Positions 13,111-58,720 are shown, counted from the stretch's first letter. The stretch is DNA of 64,000 nucleotides from Alloascoidea hylecoeti (GCA_001600815.1 BCKZ01000007.1:310001-374000), one strand, 5' to 3'. Numbers and translations: made by a program. The notes: generated from the sequence alone by a model not told the origin.

Positions 13111-15222
13111 GACTATCAAACTAAACAAAAATGTATAAAGAATGAATAATGTTGTATATAAACACAGTACTAATACTAAGAATGTAACGTTTGGAACAAA
13201 TATTTCCTTGTTTTTCACTTCTTTGATTTGATTTTATTTTTGTTTTGTCCTGATATATAAGATACTTAAGCAGTGTATTAATTATAGCTAAAGGAGTCTG
13301 GTGGTTACATGATTTTTATACTCATTCTGCAATTTTATTTATGATTATCCTCATATCAAGTGTTTATGTTCATTAAAAAAAATTGTTATCTGTTTATAGC
13401 CATCTTTGTTATTAATTATAAAAACGATTCGGTGAATAATTATTTTGCGTGTTTACCAGAAATTAGTTCGTTGGGTACTTTGTATGCTGCAATATATTTC
13501 GCTGTGGCTTTGAAATTTATTTCGCCTGTCTCATCAAAAAGACTGTTTATTCCACAGTTTTTCCTTCTTCTTTAAATTTAATAGTTATAGTATAATCTAA
13601 TATATATAAATTTTAGCTTTACGAAATCTATGAATTTATCAGATTCTGGGTTGTGTTTAAAATAATTTCAAAAACATATAATTATAAGCATTTATCATTT
13701 CACATTCACGGAATAATATCCATCCTAGCTGCAGTTTGAAAAATTGGCAGAGAATCTGGAGATGTGCACTTTAAACTTATAAACTGTGATCATTATGATG
13801 TTATTTCTTTATGTGATCTTTGAATATGATAGTATATAGCAATATTATTACCTCTGGAGTTCGAGTTCGACTTCTGTCATTGATATTCATTCTATTATTT
13901 AACAGTTGAAACGACGGATAAATAAAATACATGTATAAATTCAAGCATAAAAAAGTTCTTCAAATTCATTTAAATTCATAACCACTTGACAATGAGATTG
14001 TTGACTGACAATTTCACCATGTTTAGTCTATTACTGCCAAGATTACAGGAACTAGCTACCGGTATAGTAGTGCAAACAAATTATCATGCCTATTATACTA
14101 TTTGAATTAGATATTCAATCAAGAAATAGTGTAATACTGATATCGACTTTAATAGTTGAATATCCTATATAAAAGCTTTTAATATGACTTGATAATTTTG
14201 CGATTTATTAGCATTATTTATTACAGCTGATATAGTTATGATAATATTCTAGTATCCTGTTAAACATACTTTAAAATAATGGACAATATTATAAATTAAA
14301 CCTAATATAATTACTTTGACAGTTTGGCTACAACACAGCGGGTGTCATGGTTAATTAATTTATATGATATAATGCATTGTTATAAATATTATACAGGCAC
14401 AATTTATCATACCTGTCGTGTTATAATTAAAAAGCTGCGCTATATCTACCATTTCAGCTGGTTGTTAAAGGTTAATATGATCAGATAGACTTAATTTGCG
14501 AAATTGAAAACATCTAATCTGACAAGGGAAAAGGAAATAAATGCAACCCATTTAATTTCTGCTTCTCAACCATCTGCAATCTACTTAAATACAATAAACA
14601 AGTTGCCTCATACCTCATCAAGATAAAAGGATCGAGTGCAGGGTTGGGAAAAGGACTTGTAGGTGATTTCCTTATTTTTATTCCAGAGCTGGACATAGTT
14701 TTTTTAAAAATAGAACCTATGGATACCTTATTATAAGCTTAAGCTTGCCATTTCTTTTTCTATATAATTCTTCCTTTATTTATGATTTTCATATTATTCC
14801 TTGTATTTAGGAACCACCATTTCATTCAATGTCCAATTGATATAATCTCTCATTCTTTTCAACTCTGGCATAGTTTCAGACTTTACAATTTTTCACCTTT
14901 TTTTTTTTTTGTATGTTCTAAATTTTTAAGATTTTGGGAAGTCAAGTCACATCTATATCCAACGAATTAGGAAGGTTTTGCCAGGAAAATGTGAAAGTAA
15001 GTGTTTAATGGTCACGTTAGGTATTTTGGAACAAGAAAGATGACTATGTCTCTATACAGATCCTGAAGTGGCTATCAAACTACAAGTTTTGATTTTCAAT
15101 GGTTCTGCTTAAAAGGATATATTACAAATGAATTATATATTAAAGATTAATGAAATTATATTCAGAACTATAAAGGCTTTATATATTCTAAGAGATGAGA
15201 TACTATATCAAATGAATACAAC

Positions 15223-16446
15223 TCATTTGAATGACCACGGGTTCATATTCATCATCGAAATTGGATCCATGAAAGGAAAAGGAATATTTATACCAATTGG
15301 AAACTCTCCTTGGTTCATCATCGGAAAGAAGGAATAATTTCCATTCATATTAAAATTATAATTATTATTTTCTGTTACAATTGGTTTGGATTTCTTTGCA
15401 TTGATATTACTGATTTCCACTTCTTCCCGTTTTCGTTTATAATTACTTGAATGATCATGATTGTTCTTATGTTTTAAAAGTTTCTCTTCGGTATCACCAT
15501 CTTTCAACAACTGTTCTAACAAAACTTCATCTTTCCCACAATTAGGACATTTAAAATCATTATCCATTAATGTTTGTTGAATAGCATCATATTCATAAGT
15601 TTTACTACAGCATGGTGTTTTAACAGGATGTAAGAATATTTGATTAGTCAAAGGACATACAAGTTGAGTGTTGGGTATATGAGCTGCTGCTCTTGATTTC
15701 TGTTGATGATTCTTCCACGATTTATCATCTGCTACAGCCACAACATATTCTCCACTTTCTGTGATCATGTAATTACCTTGATTGGCGTCTCCATGTTCAG
15801 GATTTGGTATAGATTTTAAGAATGTTTTAGGAATACCAGTGGTTTTCATTACACGTTTACCGTCCCATTTGGGATCATCCTTTGTAGGACAATTTTTGAT
15901 CCAATGATCTTTTGAGCCACATCTATGACAAACATAGTCAGAAGGTGGATAGCTGAGCATATTAAAATGTGATGATGATTTATTATATATAGGAATTGCA
16001 GATGTCATACGTTTTTGGGTTTCTTTCCAATGATCTGACTGTGCTTGAAAGATGGCCTTGATTCTATCATCTTCTGAGCCAGACACTGGAATTTTAATAT
16101 TATTAGAACTATTTTTTACAGAGATATAGGATGAATGTTTGTTGATGAATTTTGGTATTGGTGTGGTTCCGTTGAGGTATCGTTGAATTCCTTTGTTTTT
16201 ACCTCTAAGTTTCACTGGTATTCTTCTTACCAATATACTTGCTGATCTTTGCAACACTTTGGAATCATCGTGATACTTTTCTTTGGTATCTGGATCCTCG
16301 AGTACTATATCAAAATCACTTCCGGCTAATTTATTGGAAATTATAATCTCTCGTTTAATATCGAAAACTGAGACGTTAATACTATCAAACGTAAGGGTTG
16401 AGTGTCGCTTTTGAGACATAAATCTATAGTAGATACAGGAAGACAT
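15223..16446 (-). CDS. MPE1: Mpe1/RBBP6-like cleavage-and-polyadenylation factor subunit, left copy
   Basis: N-terminal DWNN domain (IYYRF.SQ..VFDIKREII), zinc knuckle CHRCGSKDHWIKNC, TTGIPK motif, and RING/U-box-like CPLT..PVKTPCC..CPNC. Confidence 0.92.
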   Translation of the reverse strand: MSSCIYYRFMSQKRHSTLTFDSINVSVFDIKREIIISNKLAGSDFDIVLEDPDTKEKYHDDSKVLQRSASILVRRIPVKLRGKNKGIQRYLNGTTPIPKFINKHSSYISVKNSSNNIKIPVSGSEDDRIKAIFQAQSDHWKETQKRMTSAIPIYNKSSSHFNMLSYPPSDYVCHRCGSKDHWIKNCPTKDDPKWDGKRVMKTTGIPKTFLKSIPNPEHGDANQGNYMITESGEYVVAVADDKSWKNHQQKSRAAAHIPNTQLVCPLTNQIFLHPVKTPCCSKTYEYDAIQQTLMDNDFKCPNCGKDEVLLEQLLKDGDTEEKLLKHKNNHDHSSNYKRKREEVEISNINAKKSKPIVTENNNYNFNMNGNYSFFPMMNQGEFPIGINIPFPFMDPISMMNMNPWSFK

Positions 16447-17434
16447 TGCTGGTTGACTTTACTGGTGGTTGTAAATGATAAATAATATTGGATTCGAAGA
16501 TAAATGTTAGCTTGAAAAATGGACGTTTATTGATAAATAACGCAACACCTAATAGTTTCAGAATTTAAAATGAGTATTAATAAAAGATGTATGTTTTCGA
16601 GAGTATGTTAAGTAAAGGCTGGAGTCTGATACTATCGTAAAATTCGTGAGGTTAAAAGTTATATAAAATATAGCTATGAATATGAGAAAGTGGATGAAGA
16701 AGTAAGAAGTGTGGAGTAAACGGACTAATAATAATTGTATGTAGTAAATGCAGGGTAACTCGTCTAAATAATTCCAAATTTGTCAGACTTCTGCATTACT
16801 TCCTATAATGGAATATGCATATACAAATTGAAATACTACAATTGCAAGAATTTAAAGGAACGGTAAAATATAGTGAGCTTAAGCATATTTCTAAGTATTG
16901 TTCGTTCCATAGTCTATAAATCGTACATGATTTTCCAAAATCGTTCAACTCTTAAACATAAAAAATACTAAATCCATACTAAATCCTTAGAAATATGCTT
17001 AAGCTCACTATATTTTACCGTTCCTTTAAATTCTTGCAATTGTAGTATTTCAATTTGTATATGCATATTCCATTATAGGAAGTAATGCAGAAGTCTGACA
17101 AATTTGGAATTATTTAGACGAGTTACCCTGCATTTACTACATACAATTATTATTAGTCCGTTTACTCCACACTTCTTACTTCTTCATCCACTTTCTCATA
17201 TTCATAGCTATATTTTATATAACTTTTAACCTCACGAATTTTACGATAGTATCAGACTCCAGCCTTTACTTAACATACTCTCGAAAACATACATCTTTTA
17301 TTAATACTCATTTTAAATTCTGAAACTATTAGGTGTTGCGTTATTTATCAATAAACGTCCATTTTTCAAGCTAACATTTATCTTCGAATCCAATATTATT
17401 TATCATTTACAACCACCAGTAAAGTCAACCAGCA

Positions 17435-18658
17435 ATGTCTTCCTGTATCTACTATAGATTTATGTCTCAAAAGCGACACTCAACCCTTACGTTTGATAGT
17501 ATTAACGTCTCAGTTTTCGATATTAAACGAGAGATTATAATTTCCAATAAATTAGCCGGAAGTGATTTTGATATAGTACTCGAGGATCCAGATACCAAAG
17601 AAAAGTATCACGATGATTCCAAAGTGTTGCAAAGATCAGCAAGTATATTGGTAAGAAGAATACCAGTGAAACTTAGAGGTAAAAACAAAGGAATTCAACG
17701 ATACCTCAACGGAACCACACCAATACCAAAATTCATCAACAAACATTCATCCTATATCTCTGTAAAAAATAGTTCTAATAATATTAAAATTCCAGTGTCT
17801 GGCTCAGAAGATGATAGAATCAAGGCCATCTTTCAAGCACAGTCAGATCATTGGAAAGAAACCCAAAAACGTATGACATCTGCAATTCCTATATATAATA
17901 AATCATCATCACATTTTAATATGCTCAGCTATCCACCTTCTGACTATGTTTGTCATAGATGTGGCTCAAAAGATCATTGGATCAAAAATTGTCCTACAAA
18001 GGATGATCCCAAATGGGACGGTAAACGTGTAATGAAAACCACTGGTATTCCTAAAACATTCTTAAAATCTATACCAAATCCTGAACATGGAGACGCCAAT
18101 CAAGGTAATTACATGATCACAGAAAGTGGAGAATATGTTGTGGCTGTAGCAGATGATAAATCGTGGAAGAATCATCAACAGAAATCAAGAGCAGCAGCTC
18201 ATATACCCAACACTCAACTTGTATGTCCTTTGACTAATCAAATATTCTTACATCCTGTTAAAACACCATGCTGTAGTAAAACTTATGAAGATGATGCTAT
18301 TCAACAAACATTAATGGATAATGATTTTAAATGTCCTAATTGTGGGAAAGATGAAGTTTTGTTAGAACAGTTGTTGAAAGATGGTGATACCGAAGAGAAA
18401 CTTTTAAAACATAAGAACAATCATGATCATTCAAGTAATTATAAACGAAAACGGGAAGAAGTGGAAATCAGTAATATCAATGCAAAGAAATCCAAACCAA
18501 TTGTAACAGAAAATAATAATTATAATTTTAATATGAATGGAAATTATTCCTTCTTTCCGATGATGAACCAAGGAGAGTTTCCAATTGGTATAAATATTCC
18601 TTTTCCTTTCATGGATCCAATTTCGATGATGAATATGAACCCGTGGTCATTCAAATGA
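17435..18658 (+). CDS. MPE1: Mpe1/RBBP6-like protein, right copy (YEDD where the left copy has YEYD)
   Basis: Same domains as the left copy; the two 407-aa translations differ at one residue. Confidence 0.92.
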   Translation: MSSCIYYRFMSQKRHSTLTFDSINVSVFDIKREIIISNKLAGSDFDIVLEDPDTKEKYHDDSKVLQRSASILVRRIPVKLRGKNKGIQRYLNGTTPIPKFINKHSSYISVKNSSNNIKIPVSGSEDDRIKAIFQAQSDHWKETQKRMTSAIPIYNKSSSHFNMLSYPPSDYVCHRCGSKDHWIKNCPTKDDPKWDGKRVMKTTGIPKTFLKSIPNPEHGDANQGNYMITESGEYVVAVADDKSWKNHQQKSRAAAHIPNTQLVCPLTNQIFLHPVKTPCCSKTYEDDAIQQTLMDNDFKCPNCGKDEVLLEQLLKDGDTEEKLLKHKNNHDHSSNYKRKREEVEISNINAKKSKPIVTENNNYNFNMNGNYSFFPMMNQGEFPIGINIPFPFMDPISMMNMNPWSFK

Positions 18659-19047
18659 GTTGTATTCATTTGATATAGTATCTCATCTCTTAGAATATAT
18701 AAAGCCTTTATAGTTCTGAATATAATTTCATTAATCTTTAATATATAATTCATTTGTAATATATCCTTTTAAGCAGAACCATTGAAAATCAAAACTTGTA
18801 GTTTGATAGCCACTTCAGAATCTGTATAGAGACATAGTCATCTTTCTTGTTCCAAAATACCTAACGTGACCATTAAACACTTACTTTTAGGTTGTCTTTG
18901 AATGTTCTCAGATATGAAGTATTGAAAATATATGATAAGTGTTTAAACTAGACATTGTAGTCCAAAAAGATACTTTCTCATTTCAAAATACCAAATATAT
19001 AACCATTCGATCCAGAAAAATATTTTGAAGAAGTCCTGAGATGGAAA

Positions 19048-19070
19048 ACACACACACACACACACACACA
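19048..19070. repeat. (AC)11 microsatellite
   Basis: Directly visible in the sequence. Confidence 0.95.
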
Positions 19071-20744
19071 TAATTAAACCGATTGAAAATACGAGTCTGT
19101 TTCATAAGAGAGACTCAATTAATAGCCAGATAAACAAAGTATGGAATGATTTGTTGATTTTGTGGTAGAATATTGGATTTATAGTGAAAAGACTGCTCAC
19201 CTGCTCCATATGTTTGAGTCCTATTGGCACTAATTCATAAATGAAGCATGCAAGGAACTCAATTTACTGAAAAACTTGAATGGGCTATCTTGTAGAGTTT
19301 CCACAGATATGTGGGAAATTTAAAGATTCTAGCGATTCTTAACATTAAAGAAATTAGATGTTTCCGTCTTTAAGACGTATTCCATCTGCTAAATGACATT
19401 AAAAACTTCTAAAATTTATAAAAGAAAACTGTCTCTCTTGTGTCTCATGAAAGATATGTGTATGATAAAGACAGTTAATATGTTTGTTAAATTTTAAAAA
19501 ATGTTTTAGTTTTTGTGTATTTTATAATGCATATTCAGACACAAAATTTTATTTATTAAACCTGGCTAACTAAACATTTAGTATTGGTATTAAGAATTTT
19601 GGTTAATTTCATATAGCGAGATTTTGATGGGTGTGTTTGACGATATCAGTCAGGAGAAATTCAACCTTCTCAGTTGTGGGGAAAATAAAAAGTTTCTGAA
19701 AAGAAGAGTCTGTGCTCGAATCAACACTACCCGGCAATATCGATTCACGGAATGATCTGACCGAACACAATGAAACAAATCCCCCGTTTCTGATATAGTT
19801 ATAGCTAGATTAATTACAGCTATTACAATGTTTTAACTAAATATTCGACCACAAGAAGAACGTATTTGGTTTATCACACGATCCTGCTCTCATTATACAT
19901 CACGTGCTTTTGCCTAAATTAAATGAGATGTACTAATGATGGACCATACAGCACTAAATAAATGGAATGCTACTTGAAAGAAAAAATTGAACCAGAACAT
20001 CGCCCACATCAGACAAACGAATATGAACATTTTTGGTATTAAAAATATATGATCTTACATACCCATACTTAAATTTTTAGATTAATTATGTATAACAATT
20101 AACAAGTGTATGTAAAAATCATTAATAAGATAGCTAGGTTTAAAAAATTTGCACATGAGAAATAAATAGCCCCAATTCGAAATTAAAAAAAGCTTTCGTA
20201 AATAAAATACCGCAATATACATTAATAATGAATAATGAAAAAAAGTTTAAAGAACATAACCATGTTTATAATTTCTATAAAAAGCGAAAAATGAAAATTT
20301 TCAAGTATAATACATGTTTTAAAATATCAAAAATATATATATAAAATATTAATTTAAAATCAAAATCTTTGTAATTGATTTTAAATAAAGATAACATATA
20401 AAAACAATAATTTTAAAGTAATAATAAAGAATAACAAGATTAACTAGCAAAGTTTACAATATATAAAAAAAGTAGTGGGTAATAATGATAATAATGACAA
20501 TAGTAATAATAGTAAGGTAATAGTAATAGTAATAATGATAAGTAGGAATGAAATTAAATTGATAAAGGATTGATTTTTATAAAACTTTTAAAACAATAGG
20601 GAATTGTAATAGTAATATTAATGAGTAAGAAATAAGGGGAAAAAAGAGGGAAATAAAAAAAAAATTCTAAAAGAAATTCAAATATGTACCTTTAAACATT
20701 AGATAAAAACAAAAAAAAATCATTTCAATATTCATAAATAATCA

Positions 20745-22193
20745 TTAATTAATTTTTTTATTACCAGCTTCACAAACTTTAATACTTCTAACCCATTCAC
20801 TATTTAAAACTTCTTTACCATTTAATCTTGTAATTGGATTTGGATCAAGCATTGAATAAATAACATTTCTACATTTCAAACTTTTTAATGATTCAATTGG
20901 TGCATAACCAGTCCTTTTTTTACGATCATTTAAATATGATTGATAAAATTTATCAACGGATGGTTTTGCAATTGTCCACATATAATGACCAGTCCTCATT
21001 GACATATAAATGATACCACATGACCAAATATCAACAGGTCTAGGATCAAATTCATCAGTTATATATTCTTCAGGGGCAATATAAGGAGTTGAACCACAAA
21101 GACCATGACTTGGATGAACATCTTCTTCCCAAGCCATTTTAAAACATTCAGAATTACCAAAATCTGAAATTTTACAACATCCATCACGAGTTAATAAAAT
21201 ATTTTCAGGTTTTAAATCACAATGAGCAATACCCATGTTATGCATATATAAAACCCCACGCATAATTTGTTTAAACATACAATTTGCTTCACTTGGTTCA
21301 AGACCTGATTCACCAGTTGATAAAATTAAAGAATATAAATCACCACCAGCACAATATTCCATAACACAAAAATCACCTTTAATATCTTTCATTAAATCAA
21401 AAGTTGAAATAATATTTGGATGATGTAATGAAGCAGATATACAAAATTCGGTAGTCAAACGTTTATTATAATGATCAGGAGATTCATCAGCTTTCTTTTT
21501 AAAATCTTTAATTGCAAAATAAGTACGTTCTTTTGTTTTTGAATCAATTCTTTCAGATAATCGAACAACACCAAAAGATCCTTTACCAATAACACCTTGT
21601 AATTTACCATATTTTTGTAAAAAACTTGCTTCATTTTGGATATTTGTTGAGCTAGTAGTTGTAGTTGTAGTTGTAGTAACAGTAGTGGCAGTTGTTGTTG
21701 GAGCATTTCTAACTACATGTTTAACATCTTTTTCACCACGTTCTATTGCCGATACTAATCTTGACATCATACTTAATTGATTTTTTGGTTGGTTTTGTTG
21801 TAAACCATTCATTAAATCTTCAGAAAGAGCCAAATCAGGAACAGCAGAAACAGCTTCATCACGTAGCTTTTTATTATTTCTTAGTAAGTTATTTAACATA
21901 CTGCCCAATTTTTCTTGTCGATGGGCAGGTTTTAAACGGTGAACATGTGAATCTTCAGCAAGAATAAAACGACCACTATTAACATTTGTATTATTTGTTG
22001 AAGAAGAAACAACAGTAGATTGGGTATCCGATAGTTTAGAAGTTGAAGAAGATCTTGAAGAAGTTGACAAAGACTTAGAGGATCGCGAGGATCTAGAAGA
22101 AACGGGTTTTATAGTATCATCATTGTGATTTGGATCTTTGACATGAGAAAACAGGCTCAATATTTTGTTTGGCATGGATACCAAAGCAGGCAT
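20745..22193 (-). CDS. SAT4: Npr1/Hal5-family Ser/Thr kinase, Sat4/Hal4-like
   Basis: GKGSFG, RLTTEFCI, HCDLKPEN, DFG and PYIAPEE motifs, plus the N-terminal RQEKL motif typical of Sat4/Hal4. Confidence 0.82.
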   Translation of the reverse strand: MPALVSMPNKILSLFSHVKDPNHNDDTIKPVSSRSSRSSKSLSTSSRSSSTSKLSDTQSTVVSSSTNNTNVNSGRFILAEDSHVHRLKPAHRQEKLGSMLNNLLRNNKKLRDEAVSAVPDLALSEDLMNGLQQNQPKNQLSMMSRLVSAIERGEKDVKHVVRNAPTTTATTVTTTTTTTTSSTNIQNEASFLQKYGKLQGVIGKGSFGVVRLSERIDSKTKERTYFAIKDFKKKADESPDHYNKRLTTEFCISASLHHPNIISTFDLMKDIKGDFCVMEYCAGGDLYSLILSTGESGLEPSEANCMFKQIMRGVLYMHNMGIAHCDLKPENILLTRDGCCKISDFGNSECFKMAWEEDVHPSHGLCGSTPYIAPEEYITDEFDPRPVDIWSCGIIYMSMRTGHYMWTIAKPSVDKFYQSYLNDRKKRTGYAPIESLKSLKCRNVIYSMLDPNPITRLNGKEVLNSEWVRSIKVCEAGNKKIN

Positions 22194-26253: not shown

Positions 26254-26449
26254 TTAATTTCGGCCACACTTTAAAATAAATATTCAGCGATGCTTATTAC
26301 AAATTATCGACCACTCCTTTCATTAATTAAACATCTCCATACTCTAAGCTCAAGTCATATACATGTATAATATTCCTATAGTATAGAAGAAATAATTAGT
26401 GAATGGGATGGGTGGCTGAATATTTAGCTTAAAATATGGCCGAAATTAA
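26254..26449. mobile_element. MITE-like element remnant with 35-bp imperfect terminal inverted repeats
   Basis: 26254-26288 versus reverse complement of 26415-26449 match at 31/35; there is no coding capacity between them. Confidence 0.55.
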
Positions 26450-45204: not shown

Positions 45205-45834
45205 TTAAAAGAGAAAGACCAAAGCAATCGCACCGGCGAATGCACCAGCTGGAATAAGCTTATCAGCAGCACCTGTAGCTTCAACAATGGGGATGGGTGA
45301 TGTTGAATTACCTGAGAGAGTATGAGAATTAGTAACTGTAACTTTGATTGGAACAGTGATTGTGGAATCACAACCTTCTGGAGGACAGACAGTTGAGGTG
45401 GTTGCTTCCTCGGGTGTAAGTACAGCGGCTGTAATTTCAGGTGTAGGTGTAGCCTTAGAAACAGTACAAGGACAATCAGTAATAGTCAAAGTAGTAGCAG
45501 CTGTAACAGTGATTGTATTTGTTCCATAGGTTAAAGTGGTTGGTTCTGGACAGTAAGTAGTAAATTCAGTGACAACCTCAACTTCAGGTGTAGGTGTAGT
45601 CTTAGGAATTGTACAAGGACAATCGGTGATAGTCAAAGTAGTAGCACCTGTAACAGTGATTGTATTTGTTCCATAGGTTAAAGTGGTTGGTACTGGGCAG
45701 TAAGTTGTGAATTCAGTGACAACCTCAAAATCAGTGACTGTACTGTAGACCTCTGTGACATTACTGTAATTTCCGGCAAAAACAGAAGGAGCAGCCATGG
45801 CAATTAAGGAAACAATAGTGGTAGAATATTTCAT
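45205..45834 (-). CDS. GPI-anchored cell wall protein, Sed1/Ccw12-like, with two 49-aa repeats
   Basis: Signal peptide, two [21 protein letters not shown] repeats 147 nt apart, and a hydrophobic GPI signal. Confidence 0.9.
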
Positions 45835-50340: not shown

Positions 50341-51088
50341 ACTCATTTCAATGATGTTATATTCTTGGATATTAATGATAAATATTTGGTATCTGGTTCA
50401 ATAGTTGGTTCTTGTATAATTTGGGAATTGCCAGATTTTACGCCAATAGATCGTCCCATATTACCAGAATCAGATTATTTCTTTTTCAGAGATGTCGCTT
50501 TATACAATGATTATTGTATGTTGTAATCATAATTATATTGGAGTTTGGAAATCAAGTTTTGATAATTTGGAACAATTAAAGTTTAATTTACATCTCAGTG
50601 TAAAAAGAGACTGGATTGATCGTATTTGCATTCATAATGGTATTATATATGGTAAAGAATCTAGAGCTGTAAGATCCTGGAATATTGAAACTGGTCAAAT
50701 AATCTAAGAATTTCTGTTTGATGCTGTGAATTGCTTTGCAGTGAATGATCAATACTTAATTGTTAGTGACGACCACAAACAAAAGGTTGTGGATTTACAA
50801 ACAAATAAAACAAATATTTTATCAGATCGAGGAGTACACAGTTTACATATAAATAATAATAAACTCATTTCGGTTTATTATCATACGATTAAGATCTGGA
50901 CTTTAAATAATCTAAACTTATTTAAAGAATTTGAAGATTTCGAAATTTATAAAGATTTAGTTTTTTATTCTTCGCAGGTACCAATTGATGCTGATTCGAA
51001 AAGGCTAACCGTTTTGGCTACGAATGGTGGTGTTTTGATTTATGACTTTACTGATAATTTAAGGCAAAAATATTTAAAATATTTGTAA
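50341..51088 (+). pseudogene. WD40-repeat C-terminal half of an F-box/WD40 gene (copy A)
   Basis: DINDKYLVSGS..SCIIW and TIKIW repeats; frameshift near 50512 and stop at 50705; homologous to about 60197-60410. Confidence 0.8.
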
Positions 51089-55795: not shown

Positions 55796-58130
55796 AGTAA
55801 TAAATGTTTGCCAAAGACTTGATCCACGAGCTAGACCATACAAATTTCTTGTAAGTTTATAAATTGGTCTCTTATCTGAAGAAATGTTTATATTCAATTC
55901 TTGTCCAAATCTTTATGACATTGAGGACCATAAACATATACTGGTGAATCGATTGAGGCATTGATATAAGCCGCGGTAAAGTCCATAGTAGTGAATTTGT
56001 AATCATATTGAATTCCATAATTAATTAATGTAAACAGGCTATCATTTGTTAGAGTAAATGATTCATAGATTTTGGTTGTGTCCTCTAAATCTCCTCTAAC
56101 GACATACCTAGCCTTTAATTTTTCTTTTCTTTCATTAAGAATCTAATTAGTAGGGAGAATTTTTGTATCAGTTAATGGTTCAGTAATAGGTTCAAAAACA
56201 TGACATTTTTATCTCTCATATGTTTCCATTCTTGGATCATTGCAGTTTCATATTTCTTATAATCATTAACAGTAATATAATCAATATTTTGTTTGAGATC
56301 TTGTTTGTCTTTTACTATAAACTGGATAGTCTGCATTCATACTAATCGCCAAATTCTTAATCTTTTTAAATGTCTTTGACTTTTCATCATTTGTTGATAA
56401 ATCTCTTTCATTTTCTAGTTCTTTAGTATTTGTCAATTTATCGACTCCTTCTAGAGAAACAGTAATATTTCGATTTTTAATATTATTTGTATCTTTCTCT
56501 GTATTGTCATATTCCAAATTATCATTATGTTTAAAAACTGTATAATGTTTCATGTGTATAACTCTTCCACTGTTTGTTAATATTAAACCGGTCCAACCAT
56601 TGTTACCAATGTAGTAACCTTCATTACCTCTTGGTTCTAATTTACTTTGTGGATAAACTCTGTAAATAACTTTTGAACCAAATCTGTGGATATGACTGGT
56701 TGAAGTTTCCGTATTGATAAAATTATAACTACCTTGTTTAATATTTTTCGTGTGGTTATAAAAATGGAGCATAGTCCCATAATGTTTTCTTGTTGAAGTT
56801 TGTTATCTCAATGTTTGTATCTAATAATAATGTTCTTACTAAATCTAGCAAAGAGTAATTTTCTCTTTCTATTGTTCCATTAACAGCTGAATCATTAATA
56901 GAATTTAACACTTGTCTGACACCATGAGAACGAAGTTCTTCTTTGAGTGCTGACGAAATAAATTCACTTCCATCGTCAGAAACGACTTGTTGTATTTTTT
57001 TGTTTGTATGATTGAGAATATAATTTTATAAGGTATTGAAACATTTAGCAATTGTAGTACCTGTTTTATTGGGTATGCAAAATGGTACCGTGAGTTTTGT
57101 TTTTCTATCCTTAAAAACAAGAACAAATCTTTTACCTTCGATAGACTTTGGTAATGGACCAAAAATATCAGCATAAAACTCCAGATCGTTTTCATGTTTT
57201 CCATTCTTTTCAATAGTTGTTTTCTTTTTGGATTTTTCTTTTAAACAATTCTCACAAACATTACTCATTTCCTCTTTAAGTTGCTTCTTTTCAAACGGTG
57301 TTAGAACACACTGTTTAATAGTTGATGTTTATTGATGTGGGCATATTTCTCATGAAGAAAATAAATTTTCTTCAATTCTAATTGTAGCTATTGGCTTGAT
57401 GATTTCAACGTTCAAGCACAAATGATGATTCGTTCTGGTAATTTTTGCAACATTTTTATTATTGTGTGAAATTAAATTATAATTGGCATATTCCCTTATA
57501 AAATAATTGTTTTCATATAAGTATCTTGTAGAAATTGGAATACCAGGAATTATGGCAAAGTTTAATGATAATGTTGAATTATCGTTGAATTTAACGACCA
57601 AAGTACCTTTTCTAATATTTTAAATGGTTCACCAATAGGGATTGCAATTTGAGGTATATCATCTATATCTATATTAGTACTGACATTGTGTAATAAATTA
57701 CAAAGAGTGGAGTTGATGAGGTTGAAACCAGCACCTGTGTCTAAAATTAGATCACGATTGGGTTGAAATGTAGCAACTTTATTAAAACACCAACCAGGAA
57801 GGACAGATGATTCAGATTCATTTTTATTTGTGTTTAGATCATTTGTATTATTTTTATTGTTTCGTTTTCTCTCTGGACATTCGAAAAAATAATGTCCTTT
57901 GTTATAGGTCGAACAACGAATATCATTGGTACAATCATCAGTTGAATGTTCAGTTGAGCTGCATCTAAAGCAACGTTTGGGTTTGTGTTTAAAGTTACGT
58001 TTGTGTTTTGGCTTATTATACTTGTTCAATGAATTCTTATTCTTTTGTTGTTCATTTTGTTGTCCAGTAGGAGGGAGACGTTCTTCTATAAATAAAATCT
58101 TTACTATGCCACAAAATAAATCCAAGGACA
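55795..58130 (-). mobile_element. Degenerate Ty1/copia retrotransposon internal region; no LTRs seen
   Basis: In copia order: Gag knuckle CFRCSSTEHSTDDC, protease LILDTGA, integrase H..AH/CENC and ADIFGP, RT LKARYVVRGD, DFTAAYINA and LYGL. Confidence 0.9.
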
Positions 58131-58720
58131 TCGCCAAATATGAGCCCATAATCCAACATGAGATGTTTCTATAAAAACCGGAAATCCAAATTACAGCAAG
58201 AGTAAACATAGCGAACGAAAATAAAATAATACCAATACGGTTTGACCTTCAATAAAATGATCTTCACCACTTTCGGCTTTTTCTGTAAAAATAGCAGCTC
58301 TACCGACTTCGGTAGCATCTTTAGTAGCAGTAACCACAATAACACAGCTTCCTCTCTTGATTGTAGAAGAGCGTACACCTTCACCAGTAACTATTTTAGC
58401 AACCGATCTCTCTGATTAAAGATTCATCAACTTTTAATTCACAATTGCCAACTGACTTACCATTACGAATTACAATGGTTTTATTAACCAGCGCTTTTTT
58501 CAAAGTTTCAACGGTGTTAACAGTCGGAAATAAATGGAAAAACTTAACAACAGCATAAAAGATCAATAAAGCAAAATAAATACCAACACCAATCCCTTCG
58601 GCCAAAGTAGGGCCCAAAATACCAGAAAGTTCTATAAGAGAAATATAAAATCTTAATGTCAAAATTTTATGTTCGCTTTCCAGTTCATTTTTACCAAACC
58701 TTTTAATTAGAGAGCAGTAA
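58130..58720 (-). pseudogene. PMA1-like pseudogene, 5' portion
   Basis: KRFGKNEL, LKKALVNKTIVIRNG, VDES, SSTIKRG..VVTAT..VGRAA and IGIIL..WISGFYR motifs. Confidence 0.85.

What the first reader, a model, noticed from the sequence alone, without database searches (positions are those of the whole stretch)
14994..18887. 3.9-kb palindrome holding two intact, divergently transcribed MPE1 genes
Seen: two 1902-bp arms around a 90-bp spacer. Each arm has a full 407-aa ORF, about 450 bp of mirrored upstream DNA and about 230 bp of 3' flank. I found two mismatches, one non-coding and one Tyr/Asp change in the RING-like domain. The palindrome sits in a 7.6-kb interval with no other gene. Known: Mpe1 is an essential, normally single-copy activator of mRNA 3' cleavage in budding yeast, and long short-spacer palindromes are usually unstable. 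Inference: either a very recent fold-back duplication doubling dosage, or an older structure homogenised by arm-to-arm gene conversion. Arm recombination would flip the spacer, and read-through from either flank would form a 1.9-kb hairpin RNA able to silence the gene if RNAi is present.
Basis: partly seen in the sequence, partly recalled or inferred. Interest (0 to 1): 0.8.

Follow-up and report, generated by a model that had tools for sequence, protein, structure and literature searches.

The report
Mirror-image pair of divergent MPE1 copies
A budding yeast carries, besides its normal gene for the mRNA-end-processing factor Mpe1, a fast-evolving second version held as two back-to-back copies in a real 3.9-kb DNA palindrome, one of several such gene palindromes in this genome that seem to be kept identical by copying between their arms.

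Summary
The palindrome is real: 1902-bp arms, 2 mismatches, 90-bp spacer. Public short-read contigs break at both arm ends, show 1.6-2.0x flank depth, and hold the spacer, both outer junctions and both alleles (no long reads). The arm gene (MPE1b, 407 aa) is an old lineage-specific paralog: 68% identity, dS about 0.8, dN/dS 0.23, a 9x longer branch, yet it keeps the Ysh1-, RNA- and zinc-binding residues. So this is not a doubling of the essential gene. On C2, I found two more head-to-head gene palindromes and a third inverted pair; two of the three show arm-to-arm homogenisation footprints (the scan had noted zinc-finger palindromes and others in this genome before). Best reading: a fold-back duplication kept identical by arm-to-arm conversion, carrying a relaxed alternative Mpe1 (0.5). 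A very recent duplication remains close (0.33): edges are sharp, with no decayed halo. Centromere, RNAi-hairpin and artefact readings are weak. Expression and age are untested.

The parts
14994..16895 (.). left arm, 1902 bp
   Evidence: contig ends at 14994 and 16895 in 4 of 4 runs
15223..16446 (-). MPE1b left copy, 407 aa, carrying the derived Tyr286
   Evidence: MPE1a has Asp at this position
16896..16985 (.). unique 90-bp spacer, GC 0.27, little structure of its own (-2.1 kcal/mol); after one mismatch three more bases pair inward
   Evidence: 1x-depth contig in X1-X3
16986..18887 (.). right arm, 1902 bp; inferred to be the original copy
   Evidence: junction analysis
17435..18658 (+). MPE1b right copy, 407 aa, Asp286 (ancestral). 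DWNN aa 5-77, zinc knuckle 168-188, PSR with P206/W244, RING-like 260-303
17138..17434 (+). upstream region with weak similarity to the MPE1a upstream region, including a TATA-like box at 17216; mirrored in the left arm
   Evidence: score 72; shuffles median 42, 95th percentile 54
15062..15062 (.). arm difference 1 (partner 18819), non-coding, 68 bp from the outer edge
   Evidence: C in X1, T in X2-X4
15591..15591 (.). arm difference 2 (partner 18290), Asp286Tyr at a position that varies among homologues
   Evidence: A in X1, X2, X4 and C in X3
18873..18946 (.). short interrupted inverted repeat across the right junction: 11-bp perfect stem 18873-18883 / 18936-18946, 52-bp loop
   Evidence: 0.2-0.6% of random points have such a stem edge, but it was found post hoc
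14703..14993 (-). decayed 3' fragment of a gene on contig C1 (81% identity); similarity probably runs to the arm edge
   Evidence: 8-base match ending at 14993, about 0.1% of random 25-mers
18920..19535 (.). decayed copy of an unidentified dispersed repeat (65-87% to dozens of places)
13693..14619 (.). decayed similarity (66-75%) to non-coding DNA on contig C24

Best explanation
Two separate events. (1) Long ago (dS about 0.8) MPE1 was copied, probably as DNA with part of its promoter, to give MPE1b, which shortened its C-terminus and evolved about 3-9 times faster than MPE1a while staying intact [shown, except the DNA-versus-RNA route]. (2) MPE1b was then folded back head to head: a template switch at a short interrupted repeat gave the 90-bp centre, and a second junction joined the new left arm to the left flank, cutting a pseudogene fragment [inferred]. 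Since then the arms have been recopied from each other (intrachromatid gene conversion or repeated fold-back fill-in), so 99.9% identity dates the last recopying, not the duplication [process shown for other palindromes of this genome, inferred here]. Function [inferred]: both copies are transcribed outward from mirrored promoters and give a non-essential alternative Mpe1 that still docks on the single Ysh1 and the polymerase module and tunes cleavage efficiency or site choice under some condition, while MPE1a does the essential job.
For: Third, conserved copy on C6. a and b are sisters (100/100) with branches 0.064 and 0.59; b-specific versus a-specific changes are 30-42 versus 12-17 against 6 outgroups. 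dN/dS is 0.23 (bootstrap 0.17-0.31, 324 codons). In simulation 0 of 2000 ORFs stayed open at 0.2 neutral substitutions per site. Kept: F9, D44 and R75 (RBBP6 D43 and R74), P206 and W244 (Mpe1 P215 and W257), and the zinc ligands (roles from passages of PMC6436931, PMC9380774 and 10.1101/2021.11.02.466915). One YSH1 match. Conversion in this genome: C2:1686835-1691450 has about 1,800 inner bp with no difference and about 400 outer bp with 24-59 differing columns per 100; C2:1725568-1729897 alternates blocks of 0 and 29-39 differences per 100 bp. The C2 gene palindromes share the layout (head to head, spacers 134 and 46 bp).
Against: No decayed halo outside these arms (score 120, within 40 shuffles of 86-143; the C2 control scored 276 against at most 101). 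No GC bias between a and b (26 W-to-S versus 21 S-to-W). No orthologous locus of b was found in another species, so age is not shown. The samples laid show no differences beyond the two arm variants, so there is no polymorphism to catch a conversion. b changed residues that are otherwise nearly invariant (FDGTG to FDSIN; PPPGY to PPSDY; Y174H) and lost a C-terminal motif that a keeps, which could be decay rather than a new role. Expression is unknown.
Confidence: 0.5

Rival explanations
1. Very recent fold-back duplication (ODIRA-like inverted amplification followed by a deletion, or two template switches) of a long-standing single-copy MPE1b. The arms are alike because they are young; the structure is neutral or transient.
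For: Sharp edges and no halo. An intact 11-bp stem with a 52-bp loop straddles the right junction and the 90-bp centre is near the 40-80-bp range of ODIRA junctions (passages of PMC10766183). The left edge cuts a pseudogene fragment about 12% diverged from its parent. The laid samples are otherwise identical.
Against: Homogenisation is active in this genome, so near-identity is expected at any age. Several near-perfect gene palindromes at once are hard to explain as all brand new (earlier notes). The stem was found post hoc, and the wider alignment around it is not significant (10% of random points score as high). No third, direct copy is present.
Confidence: 0.33
2. The palindrome is an inverted-repeat centromere of the Komagataella phaffii type that happens to contain a gene.
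For: Arms of about 2 kb; a repeat-littered 7.6-kb interval inside a block of low GC3 (neighbours 0.07-0.13). The only such repeat in 464 of 1,118 kb of C7 examined. Neighbours look like RET3, RRP12, ULP1 and SAT4, which I recall as centromere-near in S. cerevisiae (recalled, not tested).
Against: The core is 90 bp, not about 1 kb (abstract passage of PMC5010909). The arms hold ORFs under purifying selection. GC3 is a mosaic with equally low bins at 160-200 kb and 220-260 kb, and longer ORF-free gaps lie nearby. C2 has three inverted pairs within 52 kb, so such palindromes are not one per chromosome.
Confidence: 0.06
3. A hairpin-RNA locus: read-through across the palindrome is diced and tunes MPE1b, and possibly MPE1a, through RNAi.
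For: One Argonaute (849 aa, PAZ and Piwi) and several RNase III-dsRBD genes. Palindromic loci are main siRNA sources in N. castellii (passages of PMC7528652). a and b share 35 21-mers in 5 blocks. Loss of Mpe1 causes read-through (passages of PMC9380774).
Against: The gene transcripts are not self-complementary. The only inward-pointing neighbour ends 1,858 bp from the arm. Selection has kept the reading frame, which a pure siRNA source does not need. Read-through silencing MPE1 would be positive feedback, not homeostasis (inference).
Confidence: 0.05
4. MPE1b was functional once but is now a silent or dying duplicate; the palindrome is a by-product of a fold-back-prone, junk-rich genome.
For: Long branch, changed conserved motifs, lost C-terminal motif; setting among decayed fragments; 6 small decayed inverted repeats in 464 kb; 1 of 1 coding differences between the arms changes an amino acid.
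Against: Frame intact in both copies; in simulation only 9% of ORFs stay open at 0.03 substitutions per site and 0.1% at 0.1, so any loss of function must be very recent. Known functional residues are kept.
Confidence: 0.05
5. Assembly artefact (fold-back read, or a heterozygous inversion merged into one path).
For: No long read or single contig spanning the whole structure was available; junction overlaps are 30 letters.
Against: About 2x depth over the arm, a 1x spacer contig carrying arm sequence on both sides, both outer junctions and both alleles in reads. A merged inversion would lack the 16985/16986 junction.
Confidence: 0.01

Closest known systems
Mpe1 (S. cerevisiae; PDB 6i1d, 7zgp) / RBBP6
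   Same: UBL (DWNN), zinc knuckle, PSR and RING-like order; E 2.7e-72 to 7zgp_F over residues 1-396; tested residues kept.
   Different: It is a second, lineage-specific paralog beside a conserved MPE1a, about 9x faster on the tree, shorter, and in two copies. One paper search for an MPE1 paralog in fungi (4 papers, listing only) showed none on this subject.
Gene-bearing palindromes of mammalian sex chromosomes (human Y P6; PMC3723533, abstract and outline)
   Same: Intact genes in arms about 99.9% identical around a unique spacer; conversion footprints in other palindromes of the same genome.
   Different: Arms of 1.9 kb and a 90-bp spacer, far smaller (sizes of the mammalian ones recalled); no link to a sex chromosome is shown; no GC bias detected; conversion at this locus is inferred, not shown.
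Divergent MF pheromone gene pairs of the Cryptococcus P/R locus (PMC12510652, passages)
   Same: Fungal, divergently oriented gene copies forming inverted repeats, proposed to be kept by conversion.
   Different: Tiny pheromone genes inside a mating-type locus; here a 407-aa RNA-processing paralog, and the layout recurs for unrelated genes.
ODIRA and fold-back inverted duplications of S. cerevisiae (PMC10766183, PMC10766186, PMC10622511; passages)
   Same: Short-spacer centre; a short interrupted repeat at the other end; a deletion-type junction as in INV-DUP-DEL.
   Different: Two copies, not three; present in natural samples without known selection; those papers call such palindromes unstable and rare. 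MRE11 and a SAE2-like gene are present here.
Inverted-repeat centromeres of Komagataella phaffii (PMC5010909, passages)
   Same: Arms of about 2 kb, virtually identical, unique in sequence.
   Different: Core 90 bp instead of about 1 kb; intact protein genes in the arms; similar palindromes cluster on one contig.
Palindromic siRNA loci of Naumovozyma castellii (PMC7528652, passages)
   Same: Inverted repeat in a budding yeast with Argonaute and RNase III genes.
   Different: The evident transcripts run outward and form no hairpin; no small-RNA data.

Membership tests
Mpe1/RBBP6 family | N-terminal UBL (DWNN), zinc knuckle, RING-like domain in that order | tested here: met
   PF08783, PF13696, PF11789, all above cut-off
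Mpe1/RBBP6 family | Ysh1/CPSF73-contact residues (Mpe1 F9; RBBP6 D43, R74) | tested here: met
   F9, D44, R75 by alignment (RBBP6 numbering counted by me along chain 2c7h_A); roles
Mpe1/RBBP6 family | PSR residues P215, W257, Y260 | tested here: met
   P206 and W244 kept; Y260 is His in both MPE1a and MPE1b
Mpe1/RBBP6 family | is the organism's conserved, essential MPE1 orthologue | tested here: not met
   the slow-evolving copy is on C6
Mpe1/RBBP6 family | expressed, bound to CPF, activates cleavage | not testable with these tools
   no RNA run was listed; no complex prediction was run
Conversion-maintained gene palindromes (Y-chromosome type) | arms about 99.9% identical with intact genes and a unique spacer | tested here: met
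   1900 of 1902 (99.89%)
Conversion-maintained gene palindromes (Y-chromosome type) | structure older than its arm divergence (orthologous palindrome in related species) | not testable with these tools
   no orthologous locus among 120 listed of 159 protein hits or 8 metagenome loci at 35-37% identity
Conversion-maintained gene palindromes (Y-chromosome type) | conversion footprint (identical core with decayed margins, mosaic tracts) | tested here: inconclusive
   absent at this locus; present in 2 of 3 inverted pairs on C2
Conversion-maintained gene palindromes (Y-chromosome type) | GC-biased substitution in the arms | tested here: inconclusive
   26 versus 21; GC3 0.23 among neighbours at 0.07-0.13, which relocation or relaxed constraint also explains
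ODIRA inverted triplication | three copies, the middle one inverted | tested here: not met
   two copies at this locus
ODIRA inverted triplication | junctions at short interrupted inverted repeats within about 100 bp | tested here: inconclusive
   90-bp centre; 11-bp stem at the right edge, post hoc; none at the left edge
K. phaffii-type IR centromere | about 2-kb arms around a core of about 1 kb | tested here: not met
   core is 90 bp
K. phaffii-type IR centromere | no protein genes in the arms; one per chromosome | tested here: not met
   selected ORFs in the arms; three inverted pairs in 52 kb of C2
K. phaffii-type IR centromere | Cse4 binding | not testable with these tools
   needs ChIP-seq
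Palindromic siRNA locus | Argonaute and Dicer-type RNase III in the genome | tested here: met
   (genes present; activity untested)
Palindromic siRNA locus | hairpin transcript and 21-23-nt RNAs | not testable with these tools
   no RNA run was listed

The most novel reading that the evidence does not exclude
This yeast keeps a genome-wide class of tight head-to-head gene palindromes (spacers of 46-134 bp) that work like miniature Y-chromosome palindromes: arm-to-arm recopying from the centre preserves and co-evolves pairs of fast-changing, lineage-specific genes. Here the cargo is a specialised second Mpe1 that replaces MPE1a on CPF in a particular state (for example sporulation) and shifts poly(A)-site choice or termination genome-wide: a paralog-swap form of alternative polyadenylation control, for which my one search found no fungal precedent.
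Probability: 0.15. Interest if true: 0.8.

Novelty: new variant of a known kind. Interest (0 to 1): 0.5.

Why it matters
Kilobase palindromes with spacers near 100 bp are treated as unstable and rare in yeast, yet this genome holds several with intact genes while keeping MRE11 and a SAE2-like gene. It offers a natural, tractable system to ask how such structures are tolerated and whether arm-to-arm conversion shelters fast-evolving genes outside sex chromosomes. Separately, a pair of Mpe1 paralogs in one cell, one conserved and one about ninefold faster with its docking residues kept, is a natural experiment on which Mpe1 features set cleavage-site choice. If the duplication is merely recent and MPE1b is silent, it is an ordinary inverted duplication of a spare gene.

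Tried and rejected
Loss of Sae2 as the reason palindromes persist: the family search found 0 candidates, but a motif search gave 5 matches, one of them in a long open frame at C8:110000 with a PPGFWxxDFP motif (Pfam SAE2 E 0.035, below cut-off). MRE11 is present. The idea was dropped; the gene is SAE2-like, not proven. Insertion of the whole palindrome into the C1-derived fragment: resumed similarity in the right flank is not significant (15% of 5,000 random 35-mers score as well), and I saw no target-site duplication. Decayed outer arms: none. A GC3 trough marking a centromere: no unique trough in 464 kb. A second CPF nuclease: one YSH1 match. Shared sequence among the centres of three palindromes: none above shuffles; recalled Ndt80, Ume6 and MCB-type motifs absent from the MPE1b centre. 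Related loci in metagenome contigs: 8 loci, all 35-37% identical, uninformative. Spacer orientation cannot be read from short-read contigs. No structure or complex prediction was run, since an Mpe1-Ysh1 pair would pass by likeness to 6i1d. Paper searches: Nadsonia, genome, palindrom: 2 papers, listing only; 20 of 35 listed; uninformative; 4 papers, listing only; none described this locus or an MPE1 paralog, but most subscription papers are not in the library. No supplementary files were read.
Full report
OBSERVATION. The coordinates are exact. Positions 14994-16895 and 16986-18887 are reverse complements at 1900 of 1902 sites, around a 90-bp spacer; the differences are 15062/18819 and 15591/18290. 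Each arm has a 407-aa ORF pointing outward with DWNN, zinc-knuckle and RING-like domains and E 2.7e-72 to yeast Mpe1 in PDB 7zgp. No other ORF of 100 aa or more lies between 13110 and 20745.

IS IT REAL? Seven of 11 listed runs hold the stretch or part of it, four of them at least half of its words; none is RNA. I laid those four (three samples at most) on 13200-17030. In all four, arm contigs stop at 14994 and 16895, as a de Bruijn graph does at a repeat. Arm depth is 1.6-2.0 times the flank and 1.8-2.2 times the spacer in X1-X3. A 150-base contig with arm sequence on both sides of the spacer is shown in three runs; X4 has no cover there. The loose end at 14994 in X3 and X4 is the right flank read backwards. 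Both alleles appear at both sites, and at 15591 within one sample (X2 and X3). Caveats: overlaps are 30 letters, under the tool's 31-letter bar; no record spans the whole; depth is not a copy number; one sample may be the source of the assembly; X1 shows no other difference, so it may not be an independent strain.

THE GENE IS NOT THE ESSENTIAL COPY. The genome (G000, 24.8 Mb, 136 contigs) has a third, full-length MPE1 at C6:1136486-1138126, 546 aa, 68% identical in protein and 76% in DNA; a search with it returns only these three places. I call it MPE1a and the arm gene MPE1b. In a tree of 24 proteins (22 picked from the 120 listed) they are sisters at 100/100 with branches 0.064 and 0.59; b's composition is flagged as atypical. 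Against six outgroups b has 30-42 private changes and a has 12-17; five of six tests exceed chi-square 3.84. The nearest named relative is Nadsonia fulvescens at 49%; the tree does not pair them firmly, so I place the organism only as an AT-rich budding yeast. Over 324 codons dS is 0.79, dN 0.18, ratio 0.23 (0.17-0.31). If dS is split evenly and dN by branch length, b's own ratio is about 0.3-0.4 (inference): relaxed, but below 1. A neutral ORF of this length survives 0.1 substitutions per site in 0.1% of 2,000 trials. Weak upstream similarity over about 300 bp, with a TATA-like box, points to a DNA-level copy. A 190-bp fragment of b on C8, with 4 substitutions and 2 deletions, shows that pieces of b have moved before.

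WHAT b KEEPS AND LOSES. Kept: F9 at the Ysh1 interface (passages of PMC6436931); D44 and R75, matching RBBP6 D43 and R74 (passages of 10.1101/2021.11.02.466915); P206 and W244, matching P215 and W257 of the RNA-sensing region (passages of PMC9380774); the zinc ligands. Changed: FDGTG to FDSIN in the UBL (human RBBP6 also differs there), PPPGY to PPSDY and Y174H at the knuckle. Lost: much of the low-complexity tail and a terminal PDF/SDY-type motif found in a and in 13 of 118 homologues. Asp286 is ancestral; Tyr286 in the left copy is derived, at a variable position. YSH1 gives one match, so b would share the nuclease with a.

THE EDGES. Both are sharp. Flank against flank gives nothing above shuffles, whereas the same test finds the halo of a C2 palindrome. 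The left flank is a decayed 3' piece of a C1 gene whose similarity probably ends at 14993; it does not resume significantly on the right. The right flank holds a dispersed repeat from about 18920, and an 11-bp stem with a 52-bp loop straddles the junction (0.2-0.6% by chance, found post hoc; the wider alignment is not significant). The simplest reading is that the right arm is original, and that the left arm arose by template switching at short interrupted repeats, with a deletion on the left. That matches the ODIRA junction rule (repeats of 2-14 bp, mostly 40-80 bp apart) and its secondary deletions (passages of PMC10766183 and PMC10766186). It is inferred.

THE GENOME CONTEXT. Earlier notes of this scan mention several palindromes in this genome. 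I tested one lead. A C2H2 search showed a mirrored pair on C2, and 69.6 kb there hold three inverted pairs. C2:1686835-1691450 carries two identical 307-aa genes head to head (spacer 134 bp): about 1,800 inner bases have no difference, and the outer 400 have 24-59 differing columns per 100. C2:1736737-1738376 has 797-bp arms, a 46-bp spacer and sharp edges. C2:1725568-1729897 alternates identical and heavily diverged blocks. Identical cores in register with decayed margins need recopying after duplication; assembly polishing could not create them (inference). So arm identity is no clock in this genome. Such structures are not everywhere: 464 kb of C7 has only this large one and six small decayed ones. 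Loss of hairpin processing does not explain them: MRE11 is present and a SAE2-like gene was found on a second look. Mre11 acts less on hairpins with spacers over 12 nt (passage of PMC10622511), which may be why spacers of 46-134 bp survive.

HOW IT MOST LIKELY WORKS. Shown: a real palindrome; an old, accelerated, still-constrained paralog; homogenisation elsewhere in the genome. Inferred: fold-back origin; continued arm-to-arm recopying here (0.5, against 0.33 for a simply recent event); outward transcription from mirrored promoters; a non-essential alternative Mpe1 on CPF. The recent-origin rival has real support in the sharp edges, the missing halo and the lack of GC bias (26 versus 21), and only a related species or strain can settle it.

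OTHER READINGS. Centromere: arm size fits K. phaffii, but the core is 90 bp rather than 1 kb (passages of PMC5010909), the arms code, GC3 shows no unique trough, and C2 has three pairs in 52 kb. RNAi: Argonaute and several RNase III genes exist and palindromes make siRNA in N. castellii (passages of PMC7528652), but these genes point outward, and a and b share only 35 21-mers. Neither can be excluded without ChIP or RNA data.

COMPARISON AND NOVELTY. It works like a small version of the conversion-maintained palindromes of the human Y (abstract of PMC3723533) and of the divergent pheromone gene pairs of Cryptococcus (passages of PMC12510652); membership of that class is not shown, because age is untested. 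Each process is known. Unusual are the tight spacer, the recurrence across unrelated genes in a budding yeast, and the cargo; searches found no account of this locus or of a fungal MPE1 paralog (listings only, open-access library). Verdict: new variant of a known kind, interest 0.5.

Noticed in passing
G000:C2:1686835-1691450 and 1736737-1738376 (L084-L089): Two head-to-head palindromes with related C2H2 zinc-finger genes (38% identical over 98 aa); the first has an identical core and a decayed outer halo.
   Followed up: yes
G000:C2:1725568-1729897: Inverted pair with blocks of 0 and of 29-39 differences per 100 bp; a 587-aa ORF lies on the left arm, and none of 120 aa or more was listed on the right.
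   Followed up: partly
L030-L034 (C19, C1, C3): Expanded RNase III family: 693- and 696-aa proteins with two dsRBDs, the second with an altered RNase III signature, plus a 338-aa form, a 150-aa piece and a broken copy; one Argonaute on C6.
   Followed up: partly
L109 (G000:C8 near 110000, minus strand): Very divergent SAE2/CtIP-like gene, missed by the family search; no CxxC-RHR motif seen before the PPGFW motif.
   Followed up: partly
G000:C8:130758-130945 (L010): Isolated 190-bp fragment of MPE1b in intergenic DNA, 4 substitutions and 2 deletions.
   Followed up: partly
G000:C7:110001-574000: GC3 is a mosaic of blocks near 0.1 and near 0.2-0.3 while total GC stays at 0.29-0.34; a gene at C2:1733424 has GC3 0.50.
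   Followed up: no
window 20745-22193: SAT4/HAL-like kinase (name recalled) with HCD in place of the usual HRD catalytic-loop motif.
   Followed up: no
window 56281-58209: Decayed LTR-retrotransposon pieces (retroviral SH3-like domain; a gag-like knuckle by eye); decayed direct repeats at 50343/60171 and 51025/61730 bracket this region.
   Followed up: no
window 45205-45834: Small cell-wall-type protein with two 147-bp tandem units, 92% alike.
   Followed up: no
window 26254-26449: 35-bp inverted repeat, 89% complementary, 126-bp loop, in intergenic DNA.
   Followed up: no
window 18920-19535: Unidentified dispersed repeat; other copies extend further on the side facing the arm. No class assigned.
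   Followed up: partly
window 17513-18372: Five stretches of 23-35 nt are identical between MPE1a and MPE1b despite dS 0.8, all in conserved motifs; occasional ectopic conversion is possible.
   Followed up: no
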